Shown: positions 2,205 through 64,000 of the stretch, one piece after another
Position numbering within the stretch: the stretch's first letter is position 1
Layout: every line of letters starts with the position of its first letter
Origin: Octopus sinensis
Lineage: Eukaryota
Direction: 5' to 3'
Length of the DNA: 64,000 nt
Assembly: GCF_006345805.1 (NCBI RefSeq)
Contig: NC_042999.1
Coordinates: forward strand, 24,242,001-24,306,000
Translations under genes and position numbers: made by a program
The notes under the pieces: generated by a model
Told to the model about the DNA's origin: nothing
The model's input: only the letters and a program-made list of their open reading frames with translations
Database searches by the model: none

Positions 2205-2822
2205 AAATTTTGGCACAAAGCCAGTTATTTTGGGGGAGGGAGAAGTCCACTACAGAGCGCCAGTGCTCAACTGGTACTTATTTAATCGACCTCGAAAGGA
2301 TGAAAGGCAGAATTTGAACTCAGAACGTAAAATCGGAGGAAATACCTATTTCTTTACTACCCACAAGAGGGTAAACACAGAGAGGACAAACAAGGACAGA
2401 CAAACGAATTAAGTCGATTATATCGACCCCAGTGCCTAACTGGTACTTAATTTATCGACCCCGAAAGGATGAAAGGCAAAGTCGACCTTAGCGGAATTTG
2501 AACTCAGAACGTAACGGCAGACGAAATACCTATTTCTTTATTACCCACAAGGGGCTAAACACAGAGGGGACAAACAAGGACAGACATAGGTATTGAGTCG
2601 ATTACATCGACCCCAGTGCGTAACTGGTACTTAATTTATCGACTCCAAAAGGATGAAAGGCAAAGTCGACCTCGGCGGAATTTGAACTCACAACGTAACG
2701 CAGACGAAATACCGCAAAGCATTTCGCCCGGCGTGCTAACGTTTCTGTCAGCTCGCCGGCCTGAAACGGAAGAAATACCGTTAAGCGCTTTGCCCGCTGC
2801 GCTGACGGTTCTGCCAGCTCTC
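2205..2822 (-). mobile_element. SINE family A tandem array (two 184-bp-type units plus a degenerate older copy and a duplicated head)
   Basis: Repeated CTGGTACTTA..TCGAC..GAAAGGATGAAAGGC blocks at ~2270, 2440 and 2625. Confidence 0.9.
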
Positions 2823-23298: not shown

Positions 23299-23493
23299 GG
23301 CGATCCTTCAGTATACGGACCATAAGTACCGAAAGTGGCTTTGTTTACATTTCTGAAGATAACAGAAACCCTTTTCTCCCACCCCTAACCCTAACACAAA
23401 CCCTAACCCTAACCCTAACCACCCATATATATATAAAAAAACACTTTCTTGAAATGTATCCGGTACTTCCGGTACCTATACCGAAGTTACGCC
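23299..23493. mobile_element. MITE with 8-bp TSD, GG termini and internal (CCCTAA)n; Merlin-like
   Basis: TSD AAAAGCAC at 23291 and 23494. Imperfect ~23-bp TIRs GGCGATCCTTCAGTATA / TATACCGAAGTTACGCC. Confidence 0.8.
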
Positions 23494-25525: not shown

Positions 25526-26699
25526 CATAATCATTGTCAAATAACTCAAGTGCCAAATTTCGTCATTTATCAACCTAACCAGTACAAAAACAATCTATCA
25601 TATTCGGTTAAACTTTTCATATTACCAAGTTCTTATCTGTATTTTTAGAAATGTTGTAATTGCTATAAATGAAATCTTAATTACAAATATTAGATTAAGG
25701 AACCTTTGTTAGTCATTAATTAACACTTCAAGAACATTATATTTGTGGGTGTAGCATTATCCACATGAGCAGAAAGATCGCACTCCGGACAGTTTTCTGC
25801 TAGCCACCTGATAATATTTTCACATTCGATTCCCAATTCTAATAACTTTTATGATATTTTACGTCTAATTATTTATTTTTATAATAGTGCTCACTTGCTT
25901 AGTAAATATTGCTTTCCTTATTTTATCACAGTCATAATCTATCATTTTTAAACAAACATCAAGGTAGCCCAACTACAAAGGGAAAGTAGTGTCTCAAGTT
26001 TTATCTTCCCTTCAAAGCAGCATAGAGATTTCAATTCAGCAGCAAGTTTTGCAGTGTGTGTGTGTGTGTGTGTGGTGTGTGTGTGTGTGTGTGTGTGTGT
26101 TCGCGAATGTGTGCATGTGTGTGAATGGGGGCGGATAGAGAGAACATTACAAATAATGAGTGAAATAAACATGAAATGAAAAGTTCATATAAATACAAGG
26201 ACATAACTATAGATGTATACGCCTCCGACTTTGATGACTCACAACATCCAGAAATCTGGATACTTTTTAACGTAATTTTTTACAAATACCGCTTAGATGT
26301 TGTGGCTTCAGATTATATAAGGATTTATGGGAAAGAATTTTTCCGAGAGAAAGGAGAGAGGAGTTTCAGAAAATTCACGCGATCCAAATGTTTTCCCTCA
26401 TAACTTTCAGGAAAATGGGTATTTTTTAATGAAAGTTTATACAAATACCTTTCAGACGACATAGGTTTCGATTATAAAGAAATTTATGAGGAAAATGTTT
26501 TCCGAGGGATGAGGAGAGAGGCGTTTCGGAACAGCTAGACCAAATAAGTTCGAACTACTCTGTTTTGATGGAGATTTTTCTCATTTTTATAAACCACAGC
26601 CTTCGAAATGATGGGGTGGGTGCGTTGCATCTTTGTATGAAAAAAAGTTTTGAAAGAAATTTTTAACACCCTCCCTGATCATCGCACTCCGGACCTACT

Positions 26700-27420
26700 T
26701 TGGCCAATTCTTTTGCACTTCAAGACCATGGGAAGAGCCTTTTCGGTAAAAAAAAAAAAAATGACCTTTTTAAAATTGTTAATATTTTCAGAGGGAAACG
26801 TGAATGATTTAAGGAGGATTTGGCTGTTGTTTCTAGCTTATCCAAAGAAAATTCTCCTCGTTTCTTTATCACTCTCGCATGTACTGATGTTTTTTGGTAT
26901 TTTCTCCCCATAAATACATTTATATACTATAAAAAATAAAATTTGAAAAATAATAAAGTTTTGAAACCTCACTCCCTGTTCCCGATTGTTTCTGTTTATA
27001 ATTTAAAATACTGGAGAGCCTGAGAAGATCATTGCTGGCATTTATCCACAGTGATTTTAAAAAAGAGTTACCTAAACGATAATTCATTTTAATAGCATAC
27101 TTTTCTGTGAGAAAATGTTTTTCTTACACACGTACACGGCTTCGCTTGATTGAGGCAGGAGTAAAAATTTAGATTACAAATTTTTCTTGTTGTTTATATT
27201 CCACCAATGGACAAAGCGTGTGCTATTTCGGCATCATCATTCCATATTGAGAAAACATCAATACATGTGAAAGTGAAAACGGAAGGTGGTTTGGATTGTA
27301 CTAGAAACAACAGCTAAATCTCCCTTTAATTCTTCACCTTTTCTTCTGAAAATTATGCATTTTTTTTTTACCGGAAAGGCTTCTCCTATGGTTTTTAAGT
27401 TAAAAACAATGGCCAAAATC
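26700..27420. repeat. Old inverted repeat pair (~140-bp diverged arms), probable decayed fold-back/DNA transposon
   Basis: 26700-26846 (GATTTGGCTGTTGTTTCTAG) versus 27289-27420 (CTAGAAACAACAGCTAAATC). Confidence 0.7.
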
Positions 27421-27941
27421 TGTCCGGTTATTATTCTTATAGCATTCCAAACAGCTATAAAAACGCAAATCACTTCTTAATTTATTTACAAAAATTATAC
27501 CAGTATATTAAAAAATTTCCAATCACTAAATAATGTTTTTACATTACTTATATAGAACAAAACTGTGAGTTTTGCAAATTGCGAATCAAAACTTGAAATG
27601 AAAACATTGAAATACAGAGTGAGAGACTTTGCAAATGAAATGAAATACTCTGCAGTAATTGCAACAAATAGTTAAATTTGTGAAAAATTGGAGTTCAAAA
27701 ATTTAGTCAACTTCAGAAATTGAAATTATAGAAAATTTCTTGGAATATGAATTTATAAAAAAATTCCAGACGGCCAAGCTCTTAATAATTGCTACTTTTT
27801 AATAACTGTCACATACGTAATTAATAAGTAGCTTTCCCATTACAATATAGCTAGGTTTTATTTGAATATGTTGTAAGCATAGAAGTGTGGTTAAGAAGTT
27901 CGCTCGCAACCACGTGAACCTGTGTAGAAGTCCGTCATGTT

Positions 27942-28011
<70 letters not shown>

Positions 28012-28151
28012 ATATATATATATTTTAACAACATTAAGGAACGGTCCTGATAGGCCATTCTACCCACTAGAAAGAGCAGCCAATACTCAAACCGCTAAAT
28101 AGTTGTAATTCAGAAATCAAAGGAAAATTAAAAAAACATTTACCCTATTCA

Positions 28152-28259
28152 TCTTTAGACAATGCATTGTTTCGACGCACTTTATTACAAACCAGCCTAA
28201 TTAAATTAAATTAAATTTAATCAAGTCAATCTACCAATGGCCCGTCTCATCGGTAAAGA
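28152..28259 (-). ncRNA. Type I hammerhead ribozyme with palindromic stem III
   Basis: TCTTTA-CCGATGA-GACG-(65 nt)-CGTC-GAA-ACAATGCATTGT-C-TAAAGA: 6-bp stem I, 4-bp stem II with G-C closing pair, 12-nt palindromic stem III, GUC cleavage triplet. Confidence 0.75.
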
Positions 28260-29490
28260 AGCCAGGAGGAATAAATATACACGAGGCAGCAGCATTTGTG
28301 CCTCGGGAATATATACTCTAAATTTTCAAAACCACCGTAATCGCGCTAACTTATCAGCAGCAAATATAAACTGCTGATTTAATTTCAGAATTAGTCAGAA
28401 AATCATTAATTAATCAATATAAGGGTAGCAAATAATTCAATAGAAATCTTTTCGCCACCAGCGGTCTAGTGAGAAAGAGAAAATAGTCACAGACTATATA
28501 TATAAATTCAACAACATTAAACAGAACAAGAATGTAACGGACAACGATGAAAATATACGGACAGATGGACTATACAAAGACGGACAGGAAAACCAGGTCG
28601 AAATATTCGTGGCTTTCTATTCATCAGTCAAGCTTCCAATCATCATTACAGTTTTGGCCTGTTACGCTTGAGACTGTTCAAAATTTGCAGGCTTCAAAAA
28701 TCTAAGCTAAAGGTATAAAGTTTTTGGAAGAAAGCGAGTGAATATATGCAACAACAGGGACAGAAAAACTACAAGAGGAAGAAAATGTTACACGCTTACA
28801 AATACAAACAACAAGAATAACAACAGGTGTCTTTCGACTAAAAGAACAAGTTAAATTAAGCTGGCGTGTGAAGTGGAAGCCTTGTGGCAACAGACGTAGA
28901 TGCAAGTCAGGAGACAGTAAAATAAGGTGTTACGCGAGCGGTGGTCAAACCAAGAAAGAAAGGGAAGGAACTAGAGACAGAGAGGGGCAGAGAGAACAGA
29001 GGGAGAGGTACAGTGGAGATAACAGAGGAAAGTAGATAGATCAGAGTAAATGAATGACGAGAAATGTGAGAGAGGGGGAGAGAGAAAAAGAAAAATGGAA
29101 CGAAAAATAATGCCAAGAAACTGTGAGAGAGGGACCAAGAAAAAGTATATGTGTGTGTGTAGGTGTCTAGGTGTGTATCTTTGTATTTGCCCTCCCGACC
29201 GCATCACAGCCGGTGTTGCTTTGCTTACGTCCTCTTAAATTATTCGTTCGGTAATAATGAATATCATACTCAAAATCAAGTACTGGAGTCGACTTTGTCG
29301 ATTTACTCCACAAACTTGTGCCATATCATGGCTGCAGTTGGATAACTGAAACAAGTACAGGAAGTGGATTAATGAGAAAATAGGGAAGAATCGCAAGAGT
29401 TCATCAAGCCGAGCCAACTCGCAGGTGACCTAGGTAAATAAACCAAGAACGAGAAAGTTAAATAATATCCATAGTCTCAATAACGATAAA

Positions 29491-30463: not shown

Positions 30464-31481
30464 CTAGTCGTTATGCTCGACCTGCTAGAAATGACGGCAG
30501 CATATTATTCAAATTACATTCACTGTCTTAAAACAGGACACATAATATGTTGTACTAGATACAAACCCCGTGATTTTTAAAATAGACGAAATACTTCTGA
30601 ACAGATTGTATTCGAGCTCTGTTCTCCTGGATCAGAACTGACCTAGAAATAACCATAAACACAACAATATTAACAACAACGACTGTACTTGTTCTGAATT
30701 CATAATTATCAGTACTATGACTAGTCGTTATGCTCGACCTGCTAGAATTCGGCAGCATATTATCAAATTACAATTCAGTCTTAAAACAAGACACATAATA
30801 TAATGTGTACTAGATACACCGTGATTTTTAAATACGAAAACTCTGAACAGATTGTATTCGAGCTCTGTTCTCCTGGATCAGAACTGACCTAGAAATAACC
30901 ATAAACAACAACAATATTAACAACAACGACTGTACTTGTTCTGAATTCATAATTATCAGTACTATGACTAGTCGTTATGCTCGACCTGCTAGAAATGACG
31001 GCAGCATATTATTCAAATTACAATTCACTGTCTTAAAACAAGGACACATAATATAATGTTGTACTAGATACACCGTGATTTTTAAAATAGACGAAATACT
31101 TCTGAACAGATTGTATTCGAGCTCTGTTCTCCTGGATCAGAACTGACCTAGAAATAACCATAAACAACAACAATATTAACAACAACGACTGTACTTGTTC
31201 TGAATTCATAATTATCAGTACTATGACTAGTCGTTATGCTCGACCTGCTAGAAATGACGGCAGCATATTATTCAAATTACAATTCACTGTCTTAAAACAG
31301 GACACATAATATAATTTTACTAGATACACCGTGATTTTTAAAATAGACGAAATACTTCTGACTATTGTATTCGAGCCTGTTCTCCTGGATCAGAACTGAC
31401 CTAGAAATAACCATAAACAACAACGATATTAACAACAACGACTGTACTTGTTCTGAATTCATAATTATCAGTACTATGACT
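30464..31481. repeat. Tandem repeat, four ~250-260-bp units
   Basis: Units start CTAGTCGTTATGCTCGACC at 30464, 30721, 30968 and 31227. They differ almost only by small indels. Confidence 0.95.
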
Positions 31482-33790: not shown

Positions 33791-33894
33791 AATGATAATA
33801 ATAATAATAATAATAATGATAATAATAATTATAAACATAGATACAACAATAAAGGCAGTAATTGACAACTGCCCTACTGCCACTACCCTAACCC

Positions 33895-34410
33895 CTGAAA
33901 GTGGTAATGGAGGAACTGAAACAGCACCAAGTTGCAAAGAAAGCAAAGTTATTAAGATACTACCAAAAAATGAAGGGTTACCAGCAGAATAGGTTATTCA
34001 GAGTAGATCAGAAGAGATTTTATAAAGAAATAAATGGAGAGTGTTCAGATGAAAAGTTGATAACAGATAACATTGAAAGTCAGTGGTTTTGGAGTGACAT
34101 CTGGAGCAAAGACAAAGAACACAAGAAGGATGCTGAATGGTTGCAAGAACTGAAACAAACAATAGTCTGTGCAAAATAGGCAGAACTAGTCATTTCAGTT
34201 AAGAAAGTGAAGGAAATCAGCAAGGTGACCAAATGGAATTCAAGGCTACTGAATCAAAAGATTTGGTGAATGTCATGCACGAATAGCTGCACAATTCAAC
34301 ACCTTGTTAATGGCCGACCAAATAACACTAGAGTGGTTGACATTGGGTAGGACAGCGCTGTGCTTGAAAAACATCAAAAAAGGCAATGCGGTAGACAATT
34401 ACAGGCCGAT
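33895..34410 (+). pseudogene. R4/Dong-like LINE ORF fragment (pre-RT region)
   Basis: EELKQ..AKKAKLLRY..QQNRLFRVDQKRFYKEI..FWSDIW..DAEWLQELK ... EWLTLGRT ... NYRP, with stops and frameshifts. Confidence 0.8.
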
Positions 34411-45350: not shown

Positions 45351-46500
45351 GGCGGCGAGTTGGCAGAAACGTTAGCGCGCCGGGCGAAATGCTTATCGGT
45401 ATTTCGTCTGCCGTTACGTTCTGAGTTCAAATTCCGCTGAGGTAGACTTTGCCTTTCATCCTTTCGGGATCGATAAATTAAGTACCAGTTACGCACTGGG
45501 GTCGATGCAGTCGACTTAATCCGTTTGTCTGTCCTTGTTTGTCCCCTCTGTGTTTAGCCCCTTGTGGGTAGTGAAAAAATAGGTATTTCGTCTACCGTTA
45601 CGTTCTGAGTTCAAATTCTGCTGAGGTAGACTTTGCCTTTCATCATTTCGGGGTCGATAAATTAAGTACCAGTTACGCACTGGGGTCGATTTAATCGACT
45701 TAATACCTATGTCTGTCCTTGTTTGTCCCCTCTGTGTTTAGCCCCTTGTGGGTAATAAAGAAATAGGTATTTCGTCTACCGTTACCTTCTGAGTTCAAAT
45801 TCTGCCGAGGTAGACTTTGCCTTTCATCCTTTTGGGGTCGATAAATTAAGTACCAGTTACGCACTGGGGTCGATGCAGTCGACTTAATCCGTTTGTCTGT
45901 CCTTGTTTGTTCCCTCTGTGTTTAGCCCCTTGTGGGTAGTGAAGAAATAAGTATTTCGTCTACCGTTACGTTCTGAGTTCAAATTCTGCCGAGGTAGACT
46001 TTGCCTTTCATCCTTTCGGGGTCGATAAATTAAGTACCAGTTACGCACTGGGGTCGATGCAGTCGACTTAATTCGTGTATCTGTCCTTGTTTGTCCCCTC
46101 TGTGTTTAGCCCCTTGTGGGTAGTGAAGAAATAGGTATTTCGTCTGCCGTTACGTTCTGAGTTCAAATTCCGCTGAGGTAGACTTTGCCTTTCATCCTTT
46201 CGGGGTCGATAAATTAAGTACCAGTTACGCACTGGGGTCGATGCAGTCGACATAATCCGTTTGTCTGTCCTTGTTTGTCCCCTCTGTGTTTAGCCCCTTG
46301 TGGGTAGTGAAGAAATAGGTATTTTGTCTACCGTTACGTTCTGAGTTCAAATTCTGCCGAGGTAGACTTTGCCTTTCATCCTTTCGTGGTCGATAAATTA
46401 AGTACCAGTTACGCACTGGGGTCGATGCAATCGACTTAATCCCTTTGTCTGTCCTTGTTTGTTCCCTCTATGTTTAGCCCCTTGTGGGCAATAAAGAAAT
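45351..46500 (+). repeat. SINE family A hexamer: one head plus six 184-bp tandem units
   Basis: Period 184 (anchor positions 45496, 45680, 45864, 46048, 46232, 46416). ACAAATGATGAGA on both flanks. Confidence 0.95.
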
Positions 46501-60847: not shown

Positions 60848-61471
60848 GGCGGCGAGCTGGCAGAAACGTTAGCACGCCGGGCGAAATGCGTAGCCGTATT
60901 ACGTCTGTCGCTACGTTCTGAGTTCAAATTCCGCCGAGGTCGACTTTCGGGGTCGATAAATTAAGTACCAGTTACGCACTGGGGTCGATGTAATCGACTT
61001 AATCTGTTTGTCTGTCCTTGTTTGTCCCCTCTGTGTTTAGCCCCTTGTGGGCAATAAAGAAATAAGAAACGTTAGCACGCCGGGCGAAATGCGTAGCCGT
61101 ATTTCGTCTACCGTTACGTTCTGAGTTCAAATTCCGCCGAGGTCGATTTTGCCTTTCATCCTTTCGGGGTCGATAAATTAAGTACCAGTTACGCACTGGG
61201 GTCGATATAATCGACTTAGTCCATTTGTCTGTCCTTGCTTGTCCTCTCTGTGCTTAGCCCCTTGTGGGTAGTAAAGAAATAGGTATTTCGTCTGTCTTTA
61301 TGTTCTGAGTTCAAATTCCGCCGAGGTCGATTTTGCCTTTCATCTTTTCGGGGTCGATAAGTTAAGTACCACTTATGCTCTGGGGTCGATGCAATCGACT
61401 TAATCCATTTGTCTGTCCTTATTTGTCCTCACTGTGCTTAGCCCTTTGTGGGTAGTAAAGAAATAGGTATT
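60848..61471 (+). repeat. SINE family A trimer
   Basis: Three units. Second unit restarts at AGAAACGTTAGC, third at GTATTTCGTC. Confidence 0.95.
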
Positions 61472-61945
61472 TAAGATTTACTGAGAATTTTGCTTTTCAT
61501 CATTTCGGCGCCGACAAAAAATTACCAGTCCAAAGCAGTGGATTGGCGAAACGTTCAGAAGTAAAGACTGGATGCCTTGCAATATATGCAAGTTCAAACG
61601 TAACAAGTGCTACATAACGTAATAGGGGCTACAGGTGCTAGTTCAAATCTAACAGGTGCTACATAGGTGTTGAAACGGGACAGGCGCTACACAGGTGGTA
61701 GAATTTTTCCATTATCTAGCTTAGCACCATCACATGGCATTTTGGATTCCTTTAACGGAGCCCAAGCTGTATGAAATATTTCATCTAAGTATATCTAAGG
61801 TCCCAGTAAAGGGTCATGGGCACTGTCTTCTCTAGAATAATAAGAAAATAAAAATTAAGGTAACTATTGTTAAATTTTTGGTCACTCATTTTGTCAGTAA
61901 GCACATACTATTTATTTGATTTTCACTTTTCCACACGAAGACAAG

Positions 61946-63353: not shown

Positions 63354-64000
63354 TTTACTACTCACAGGGGCTAAACACAAAGCGGACAAACAAGGACAGA
63401 CAAACGGATTAAGTTGATTATATCGACACCAGTGCGTAACTGGTACTTAATTTATCGACCCCGAAAGGATGAAAGGCTAAGTCGACCTCGGCGGCATTTG
63501 AAATCAGAAAGTAACGGCAGACGAAATACCTATTTCTTTACTACCCACAAGGGGCTAAATACAGAAAGGACAAACAAGGACAGACAAACGGATTATGTCG
63601 ATTACATCGACCCCAGTGCCTAACTGGTACTTAATTTATCGACCCGGAAAGGATGAATGGCAAAGTCGAACTCGGCAGAATTTGAACTCAGAACGTAACG
63701 ACAGACGAAATACCTATTTCTTTACTACCCACAAGGGGCTAAACACAGAGAGGACAAACAAGGATAGACAAACGGATTAAGTCTATTATATCGGCCTCAG
63801 TGCGTAACTGGTACTTAATATATCGACTCCGAAAGGATGAAAGGCAAAGTCGACCTCAGGGAAATTTGAACTCAGAACGTAGCGGCAAACGAAATACCGC
63901 TATGCATCTCGCCCGGTGTGCTAACGTTTCTTATTTCTTTACTGTCCACAAGGGGCTAGACACAGAGGGGACAAACAAGGACAGACAACGTTTCTACCAG
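63354..64000 (-). repeat. SINE family A multimer array (at least 3.3 units)
   Basis: 184-bp units between the gap and the window end. Confidence 0.95.

What the first reader, a model, noticed from the sequence alone, without database searches (positions are those of the whole stretch)
28152..28259. Near-textbook type I hammerhead ribozyme hidden on the minus strand
Seen: TCTTTA/TAAAGA stem I, core CCGAUGA (U4-to-C variant), GACG/CGTC stem II around a 65-nt AT-rich loop, GAAA, a perfect 12-nt palindrome ACAATGCATTGT as stem III, and a GUC triplet. Predicted cut is between 28158 and 28157. Established: Penelope-like elements and non-LTR retrozymes carry type I hammerheads whose palindromic stem III allows dimeric cleavage. 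Inference: this is a possibly still active ribozyme of an octopus PLE/retrozyme-like repeat. The long loop II and long palindrome are atypical for minimal PLE hammerheads.
Basis: partly seen in the sequence, partly recalled or inferred. Interest (0 to 1): 0.75.

Follow-up and report, generated by a model that had tools for sequence, protein, structure and literature searches.

The report
Hammerhead retrozyme with Penelope-type insertions
This is one lone copy of a protein-less jumping repeat with hundreds of relatives in the genome; it carries a well-conserved hammerhead-shaped RNA that likely cuts itself and is likely pasted in by a borrowed Penelope-type enzyme, though this particular copy is predicted to fold poorly.

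Summary
Real. All listed parts are at the stated coordinates, and no such motif arose in 300 shuffles. The hammerhead lies in a 484-nt non-coding repeat unit (28520-28024, minus strand) with at least 179 motif-intact relatives. Stems I, II and III covary across subfamilies. Copies show Penelope-type insertion anatomy: (TA)n targets, two fixed 3' ends, variable 5' ends, partial tandems and inverted arms. 5' ends are somewhat enriched just after the predicted cut (suggestive only), yet 59 of 95 arms read through it, which needs a circular or uncut template. No helper Penelope element was linked. The window copy is solitary and has private changes that favour a misfold. Verdict: new member of the known non-LTR retrozymes; cleavage untested. 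This scan already reported several such families, U4C cores and the two-fixed-end pattern on other DNA of this genome.

The parts
28024..28520 (-). Non-coding retrozyme-like element copy: slightly more than one 484-nt unit (u1 = 28520), 5' end fused to a different repeat, 3' end on a (TA)n tract
   Evidence: Homology to relatives stops at 28520 and runs into the TA array; 87-95% identity to the 29 other loci; no stop-free frame of 110 aa or more over the unit
28152..28259 (-). Type I hammerhead motif (stems I-III and core)
   Evidence: Sequence; descriptor scan 1 hit, 0 in 300 shuffles; covariation
28247..28253 (-). Core CCGAUGA with U4C, shared by the whole subfamily
   Evidence: 64 of 64 exact-pattern hits with the GACG stem have C4; the U4C copies form one side of a 100/99 branch
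28174..28246 (-). Stem II: 4-bp proximal helix (28246-28243 with 28177-28174), internal loop, then a long G-U-rich hairpin (apical helix 28225-28214 with 28207-28196)
   Evidence: Folds; fourth pair A-U 55 / G-C 42 of 101 copies; private changes at 28187, 28186 and 28178 in this copy
28159..28170 (-). Stem III as a 12-nt palindrome (4 bp plus UGCA loop; candidate dimer helix)
   Evidence: Third pair U-A 66 / A-U 30 of 101; hairpin 0.0 against self-duplex -15.1 kcal/mol
28157..28158 (-). Predicted cut after GUC (u363|u364)
   Evidence: Hammerhead consensus (established knowledge); 5' ends of arms 12 at u364-375 against 3 at u352-363 of 95; cleavage itself untested
28260..28264 (-). UGGCU just outside stem I: candidate 5' half of a kissing/pseudoknot contact (inferred)
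   Evidence: GGC here and GCC in the stem II loop both present in 91 of 114 copies, including relatives about 70% identical; covariation weak
28238..28242 (-). GGCCA in the stem II internal loop: candidate 3' half of that contact (inferred)
   Evidence: Same as the previous row
28039..28060 (-). Conserved hairpin near the 3' end (possible RT recognition signal; inferred)
   Evidence: 284 exact genome matches to a 31-nt pattern over it, 0 for the reversed control; folds in the monomer
28495..28505 (-). TA-like tract u16-26: one of the two fixed 3' end points of family arms
   Evidence: 47 of 95 arms lack the tail beyond this point; junctions shown
28409..28422 (-). TA-like tract u99-112: the second fixed 3' end point (end of the 'tail')
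   Evidence: 41 of 95 arms end at u100-120
27946..28023 (.). (TA)n target microsatellite at the element's 3' end
   Evidence: Tandem Repeats Finder; arms of relatives likewise end in (TA)n

Best explanation
This is a solitary genomic copy of a protein-less, 484-nt, hammerhead-bearing repeat (a non-LTR retrozyme) whose RNA likely self-cleaves and is likely copied into (TA)n tracts by a borrowed Penelope-type reverse transcriptase/endonuclease. Shown: the motif, the family, covariation in all three stems, strand-specific folding, and the insertion anatomy. Inferred steps: (1) tandem source loci are transcribed on the hammerhead strand; (2) the ribozyme, probably helped by palindromic stem III pairing between two units and by a GGC/GCC contact between stems I and II, cuts after GUC to give unit-length RNA, part of which circularises; (3) the helper nicks a (TA)n target and primes at one of two TA-like tracts inside the unit (u26, u112), one per DNA strand in two-armed insertions; (4) copying runs off near the cut on linear RNA, or reads through it on circular or uncut RNA. 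The window copy crosses the cut and exceeds one unit, so its template was not a cleaved linear monomer. It is now most likely a decaying, low-activity copy.
For: Family: 2962 first-look candidates, 50 matches from 40 scored; 179 exact hits to a relaxed hammerhead pattern, 0 for the control. Covariation on 44 distinct rows: 93.2% of cells paired, 11 of 24 pairs changed on both sides, 0 of 500 shuffles as high, slid controls 33-42%; stem I, which no pattern fixed, has G-C 85/A-U 11, U-A 75/C-G 22, U-A 87/C-G 10 of 101. Real monomers fold better on the hammerhead strand than on the opposite one (window -116.6 against -73.0 kcal/mol, z -4.3; same direction in 6 of 6). Arms end at two fixed points on (TA)n (47 and 41 of 95), 13 of 14 two-armed loci use one of each, 5' ends vary; this matches the PLE anatomy described in PMC8557442. 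A relative about 70% identical forms a young array of near-identical units (488-491 matches in 490-492 nt) plus an inverted arm. 5' ends in the 37 nt after the cut: 23 of 82 arms at risk, against 7 of 89 in the next 37 nt downstream (p=0.0006). U4C is a natural variant that stays functional in a viroid (PMC3088659).
Against: No cleavage, circle or strand of RNA was shown. The 5'-end excess is not significant against the 37 nt upstream of the cut (23/82 against 10/59, p=0.16), is spread over about 35 nt, could come from TA microhomology or a length preference (19 of 48 tailed arms but only 8 of 47 short arms start there), and is not significant in either core class alone. 59 of 95 arms cross the cut. 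No autonomous PLE sharing the unit's ends was found (30 GIY-YIG loci; 29 short and 20 long loci of a second PLE family). Most family insertions hold only 1-2 units, unlike typical retrozyme arrays, and 484 nt is above the 150-450 bp given in PMC7229834. Stems II and III were partly fixed by my search patterns, and cells count related copies, not events. The nearest-neighbour model gives the hammerhead fold only about 1% of the ensemble even in typical copies. For the kissing contact, 7 of 9 copies with ACC in the loop keep GGC (a mismatch), three of them from one U4C sub-lineage.
Confidence: 0.78

Rival explanations
1. Same mobile element, but the hammerhead is vestigial in the window's U4C subfamily: it no longer cuts usefully, and copies are made from uncut read-through transcripts of tandem loci.
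For: U4C considerably lowers activity in vitro (PMC3088659). 59 of 95 arms cross the cut site. In arms assigned to U4C references 10 of 48 start in the 37 nt after the cut, against 13 of 34 for canonical-core references. U4C copies have a stronger competing hairpin over the core (median -6.5 against -2.8 to -5.9 kcal/mol), and several copies have lost the segment inside that hairpin.
Against: Compensatory changes occurred inside the U4C clade (stem I G-C/A-U and U-A/C-G, stem III U-A/A-U), which points to continued selection on the fold after U4C arose. Some U4C arms start at or within 2 nt of the cut (L021, L011).
Confidence: 0.25
2. The unit is the 3' terminal repeat (pLTR) of an autonomous Penelope-like element, and these copies are ordinary 5'-truncated insertions of it.
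For: All insertion features are PLE features. The genome holds young, intact PLE ORFs of at least two families that also end in (TA)n. Retrozymes are reported to derive from pLTRs (bioRxiv 10.64898/2026.07.22.740005).
Against: Long arms wrap from the unit's end back to its start instead of running into an ORF; a relative has four near-identical ORF-less units in a row; none of the PLE loci examined carries the unit at its own 3' end.
Confidence: 0.1
3. Chance motif, or DNA-level repeat (MITE or satellite) in which the hammerhead look is accidental.
For: No Rfam hammerhead match; the motif is not the lowest-energy fold of this copy.
Against: 0 hits in 300 shuffles; core conserved and stems covarying down to about 70% identity; G-U pairs work on one strand only; fixed 3' and variable 5' ends mark reverse transcription.
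Confidence: 0.02

Closest known systems
Metazoan non-LTR retrozymes (coral, mussel, axolotl; Cervera and de la Pena 2020, PMC7229834, parts 2-3 of 6 read; Li, Clavereau and Pollet, bioRxiv 10.64898/2026.07.22.740005, part 1 of 5 and passages read)
   Same: Non-coding, AT-rich unit with one type I hammerhead, many genomic copies, self-paired monomer, monomers and short tandems, co-occurrence with PLEs; like the mussel ribozymes it lacks the usual loop 1/loop 2 nucleotides.
   Different: Unit of 466-492 nt (above the 150-450 bp reported); mostly 1-2 units with inverted arms; stem II extended into a long rod; stem III of 4 bp with a 12-nt palindrome rather than 1-2 bp; U4C in one subfamily; circular RNA not shown here.
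Minimal hammerheads in the pLTRs of Penelope-like elements (Cervera and de la Pena 2014, PMC4209133, parts 1-2 of 4 read; PLE anatomy from Craig et al. 2021, PMC8557442, passages read)
   Same: Type I, palindromic stem III/loop 3, longer-than-usual helix II, partial tandems, inverted 5'-truncated arm, tail on one end only, microsatellite targets.
   Different: No ORF; full 6-bp stem I and 4-bp stem III, so not minimal; tail about 86 nt instead of 30-40 bp; no autonomous partner identified.
Hammerheads with a pseudoknot between stems I and II, and the natural U4C core variant (Perreault et al. 2011, PMC3088659, passages read)
   Same: A base-paired contact in place of the loop-loop motif is described for all three types; U4C is described as a natural, slower but viable viroid variant.
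   Different: Here the contact would join a bulge outside stem I to an internal loop of a long stem II, and is only inferred; U4C is fixed in a whole amplified retroelement subfamily.

Membership tests
Type I hammerhead ribozyme | Core CUGANGA / GAAA / UH around a three-stem junction, open stem I | tested here: met
   All core letters present except the known variant U4C; sister subfamilies have canonical U4 (57 of 101 held copies; 12 of 12 distant hits)
Type I hammerhead ribozyme | Stems supported by covariation | tested here: met
   11 of 24 pairs changed on both sides, 0 of 500 shuffles as high; stems II and III partly fixed by the search pattern, stem I not
Type I hammerhead ribozyme | Tertiary contact between stems I and II | tested here: inconclusive
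   GGC/GCC conserved in 91 of 114 copies; only 3 copies show a two-sided change and 7 of 9 ACC copies are mismatched
Type I hammerhead ribozyme | Match to an Rfam hammerhead covariance model | tested here: not met
   No hammerhead row at E<=10 in the local scan; probably due to the long stem II (inference)
Type I hammerhead ribozyme | Site-specific self-cleavage | not testable with these tools
   Needs an in vitro assay; the genomic 5'-end excess is only suggestive
Non-LTR retrozyme | Non-coding repeat unit with one type I hammerhead | tested here: met
   One motif per unit, no ORF
Non-LTR retrozyme | Head-to-tail tandem organisation | tested here: met
   Ten real tandem monomers of 463-490 nt; four-unit array in a relative; the window copy itself is solitary
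Non-LTR retrozyme | Unit length 150-450 bp | tested here: not met
   463-492 nt; a descriptive range, slightly exceeded
Non-LTR retrozyme | Highly self-paired monomer | tested here: met
   Circular folds 61-70% paired, z -4.3 to -6.7 on 15 shuffles each, 6 of 6 monomers
Non-LTR retrozyme | Expressed as linear and circular unit-length RNA | not testable with these tools
   Only contigs of runs guessed to be RNA were available
Autonomous Penelope-like element | RT plus GIY-YIG ORF between pLTRs | tested here: not met
   No ORF in or collinear with the unit
PLE-mobilised element | Partial tandems, inverted 5' arm, one-sided tail, microsatellite target, 5' truncation | tested here: met
   definition from PMC8557442
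PLE-mobilised element | Sequence shared with the pLTR of an autonomous PLE in the same genome | tested here: inconclusive
   None found in the top 30 of 150 listed GIY-YIG loci or in 29 short and 20 long loci of a second family; thousands of PLE candidates were not examined

The most novel reading that the evidence does not exclude
A retrozyme lineage with a long-armed type I hammerhead in which a bulge outside stem I kisses an internal loop of a rod-like stem II, making the core robust enough for a U4C subfamily to arise and amplify; and whose genomic copies record cleavage in vivo, short arms running off at the cut of linear monomers while long arms read round a circle. The family would then be a natural paired test (U4 against C4, linear against circular template) of what hammerheads do for Penelope-type transposition.
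Probability: 0.3. Interest if true: 0.62.

Novelty: new member of a known kind. Interest (0 to 1): 0.42.

Why it matters
Whether hammerheads in Penelope-like elements and animal retrozymes cut in vivo, and whether the reverse transcriptase copies a circle, is stated as open in PMC4209133 and PMC8557442. This family offers sister subfamilies with canonical and U4C cores, a full-size fold that is easy to assay, and hundreds of insertions whose 5' ends can be mapped against the predicted cut. The single copy in the window is otherwise ordinary repeat DNA.

Tried and rejected
Rfam scans: no hammerhead match. 'U4C is fixed in the whole family': held, rejected (my first pattern excluded the canonical subfamilies). 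'The upstream 440 bp is the element's body': rejected, it is a separate repeat and was not found joined to the unit in any other held locus. Helper search: a Pfam accession recalled from memory was not in the library; PF01541 loci gave only a 40-nt antisense match inside the ORF at E 0.004, taken as chance; the PLE next to L069 and a 77% hit in L272 turned out to be neighbouring separate insertions. 'The hairpin competing with the core is a conserved switch': weak in canonical subfamilies (-2.8 to -5.9 kcal/mol), not pursued. Expression: no RNA holder listed. Contigs of runs guessed to be RNA match the family (167, 14 and 11 laid) and the four-unit relative (129, 38, 55), but give no strand or ends; none carried this copy's private bases at 28186-28187; coverage gaps near the relative's cut fall at different places and the other run dips there too, so nothing is concluded. 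Junction pattern: by hand count 22 of 23 distinct places among the first 100 of 423 rows start between the cut and the anchor, but most belong to the distant relative and sit on TA microhomology, so I give this little weight. PMC5785218 (PLE hammerhead variants cleaving as dimers) is not held; its content is known to me only from a review passage (PMC6765202). Paper searches for a cephalopod report of this family and for this contact in metazoan type I ribozymes found none; PMC6962438 only counts 235 Rfam hammerheads in giant squid. No supplements were read; ribozyme lists in those of PMC4209133, PMC7229834, PMC3088659 and the bioRxiv preprint may bear on novelty.

Full report
Observation. A descriptor scan finds this one hit in the window and none in 300 dinucleotide shuffles read on both strands. 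Rfam does not call it. The 65-nt 'loop II' is a long hairpin that needs G-U pairs and folds on this strand only. The unconstrained fold of this copy pairs the core with the 5' strand of that hairpin instead.

The element. A search of the own genome (2.72 Gb) with 361 bases gave 2962 first-look candidates and 50 matches from the 40 scored. Homology covers 28520 to the TA array at 28023 and wraps from the unit's end to its start, giving a 484-nt unit (u1 = 28520, cut between u363 and u364). There is no long open frame over it. The 440 bp upstream is a different repeat. The window copy has 10 private substitutions in 494 nt against 33 aligned copies; three lie in the outer part of stem II, none in the core, stem I, proximal stem II or stem III.

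Subfamilies and covariation. Under a pattern with the GACG stem, 64 of 64 hits have C4. A relaxed pattern gives 179 hits and shows sister subfamilies with canonical cores. Of 101 distinct copies held, enriched on purpose for canonical ones, 44 have CCGAUGA, 47 CUGACGA and 10 CUGAUGA. The U4C copies form one side of a branch with 100/99 support in a midpoint-drawn tree whose bootstrap had not fully settled. All 12 more distant hits and a four-unit relative have U4, so U4C is probably derived (inference, no rooted test). Nearest-neighbour identities are alike in all groups, 96-98%. On 45 chosen copies (44 distinct), 93.2% of cells pair, 11 of 24 pairs change on both sides, and 0 of 500 shuffles reach this. 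Stems II and III were partly fixed by my patterns; stem I was not, and it covaries at three positions among the 101. Compensatory changes also lie inside the U4C clade.

GGC 8-10 nt before the core and GCC just after proximal stem II are both kept in 91 of 114 copies while neighbouring letters change. They could form a 3-5 bp contact between stems I and II, a kind of contact described in PMC3088659. Support by covariation is weak: two copies of one sub-lineage and one other copy have GGU/ACC, while 7 of 9 ACC copies under the pattern keep GGC and 6 of 8 GGU copies keep GCC. The palindrome alone forms no stable hairpin but a -15.1 kcal/mol self-duplex, which fits the dimer mechanism described in PMC4209133. 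The predicted hammerhead share is 5e-4 for this copy, fifth lowest of 44 U4C copies (median 0.013); the model ignores tertiary contacts.

Insertion anatomy. A 31-nt pattern near the 3' end has 284 genome matches. I analysed the first 100 listed (contigs 1-7), which gave 95 distinct arms. 47 end at u26, 41 at u100-120 and 7 elsewhere or run on; 13 of 14 two-armed loci have one end of each kind. Ends abut (TA)n. This is the anatomy that PMC8557442 gives for PLE insertions, and it sets the hammerhead strand as the RNA strand. Both end points are TA-like tracts inside the unit, not the cut site, so priming is probably internal (inference).

5' ends against the cut. 27 of 95 arms start at u364-400, 7 at u401-437 and 12 at u327-363. 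First-lap rates are 23/82, 7/89 (p=0.0006) and 10/59 (p=0.16). In 12-nt bins there are 12 starts after the cut and 3 before. Four of the six arms that reach a second lap also stop in that bin. Against: the excess is spread out, stronger in tailed arms (19 of 48) than in short ones (8 of 47), not significant in either core class, and open to a TA-microhomology explanation. 59 of 95 arms cross the cut, and so does the window copy, so many templates were circular or uncut. A relative about 70% identical forms four near-identical tandem units and an inverted arm, as expected from repeated copying of one RNA.

Helper and expression. The genome holds young PLE ORFs of several families, but none of the loci examined shares the unit's ends. 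RNA evidence is uninformative.

Mechanism. Most likely a non-LTR retrozyme moved by a PLE enzyme: transcription of tandem sources, slow or dimer-assisted cleavage after GUC, a mixed pool of linear and circular units, priming on (TA)n at two internal tracts, and run-off or read-through at the cut. The anatomy and covariation are shown; cleavage, circles, dimer use, the kissing contact and the helper are inferred. The window copy is a solitary, about 2% decayed insertion with an intact core and a favoured misfold.

Comparison and novelty. It works like the metazoan non-LTR retrozymes (PMC7229834; bioRxiv 10.64898/2026.07.22.740005) and meets their sequence-level criteria except a slightly longer unit. 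It is not an autonomous PLE. U4C and base-paired stem I-II contacts are known for other hammerheads. Seven paper searches showed no description of this family; supplements were not read. Earlier scan notes report several similar families, U4C cores and the two-fixed-end pattern elsewhere in this genome, none on this sequence. Papers seen: PMC4209133 parts 1-2 of 4; PMC7229834 parts 2-3 of 6; the bioRxiv preprint part 1 of 5 and passages; passages of PMC8557442, PMC3088659, PMC10085705, PMC6765202 and PMC6962438. Verdict: real, new member of a known kind, interest 0.42.

Noticed in passing
window 28521-28962, minus strand (motif 28677-28611): A different high-copy repeat of about 440 bp (2878 first-look candidates) is fused directly to the 5' end of the element. 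It holds hammerhead blocks in the non-circular S-G-C order of PMC10085705 (cut site, then GAAA, then CUGAUGA), with 5-bp stems I and III and 7 nt inserted before a 3-bp stem II. The window copy has A in place of G12 (28655); 4 of 5 other copies seen keep GAAA. Earlier scan notes describe this kind. The fusion could be an insertion into its 3' end or a template switch; no second such fusion was among the held loci.
   Followed up: partly
L280 (G000:C25:28651800-28660300): Young relative about 70% identical: four near-identical 490-492-nt units plus an inverted arm; hammerhead with 8-bp stem I, GUA triplet and a G-U in the palindrome. Its family has far higher depth than the window's in run X14; the best candidate for an assay.
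   Followed up: partly
L003, L004, L005, L008, L009 (matching window 28250-28238): Several U4C copies have lost 6-14 nt inside the hairpin that competes with the core, as if the copying enzyme skipped that hairpin.
   Followed up: no
L222, L223 and L276-L295: Young, intact-looking PLE ORFs of at least two families (about 780 aa; 800-1100 aa with an Asn-rich linker before the GIY-YIG domain); no canonical hammerhead was found by my pattern in their 3' flanks.
   Followed up: partly
window 26689-27427: About 740-bp element with long imperfect terminal inverted repeats (68-80% complementary), MITE-like.
   Followed up: no
window 2310-2713, 45398-46500, 61099-61472, 63354-63898: Four arrays of a 184-bp unit (2 to 6 copies), the same repeat on both strands.
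   Followed up: no
window 30464-31481: Four tandem copies of a 259-bp unit, 94% matches; no type I hammerhead by my descriptor.
   Followed up: no
window 23383-23420: Six copies of CCCTAA, an interstitial telomere-type repeat.
   Followed up: no
window 33892-34179, plus strand: Frame that resembles the N-terminal part of an RTE-type LINE protein (resemblance recalled, not searched).
   Followed up: no
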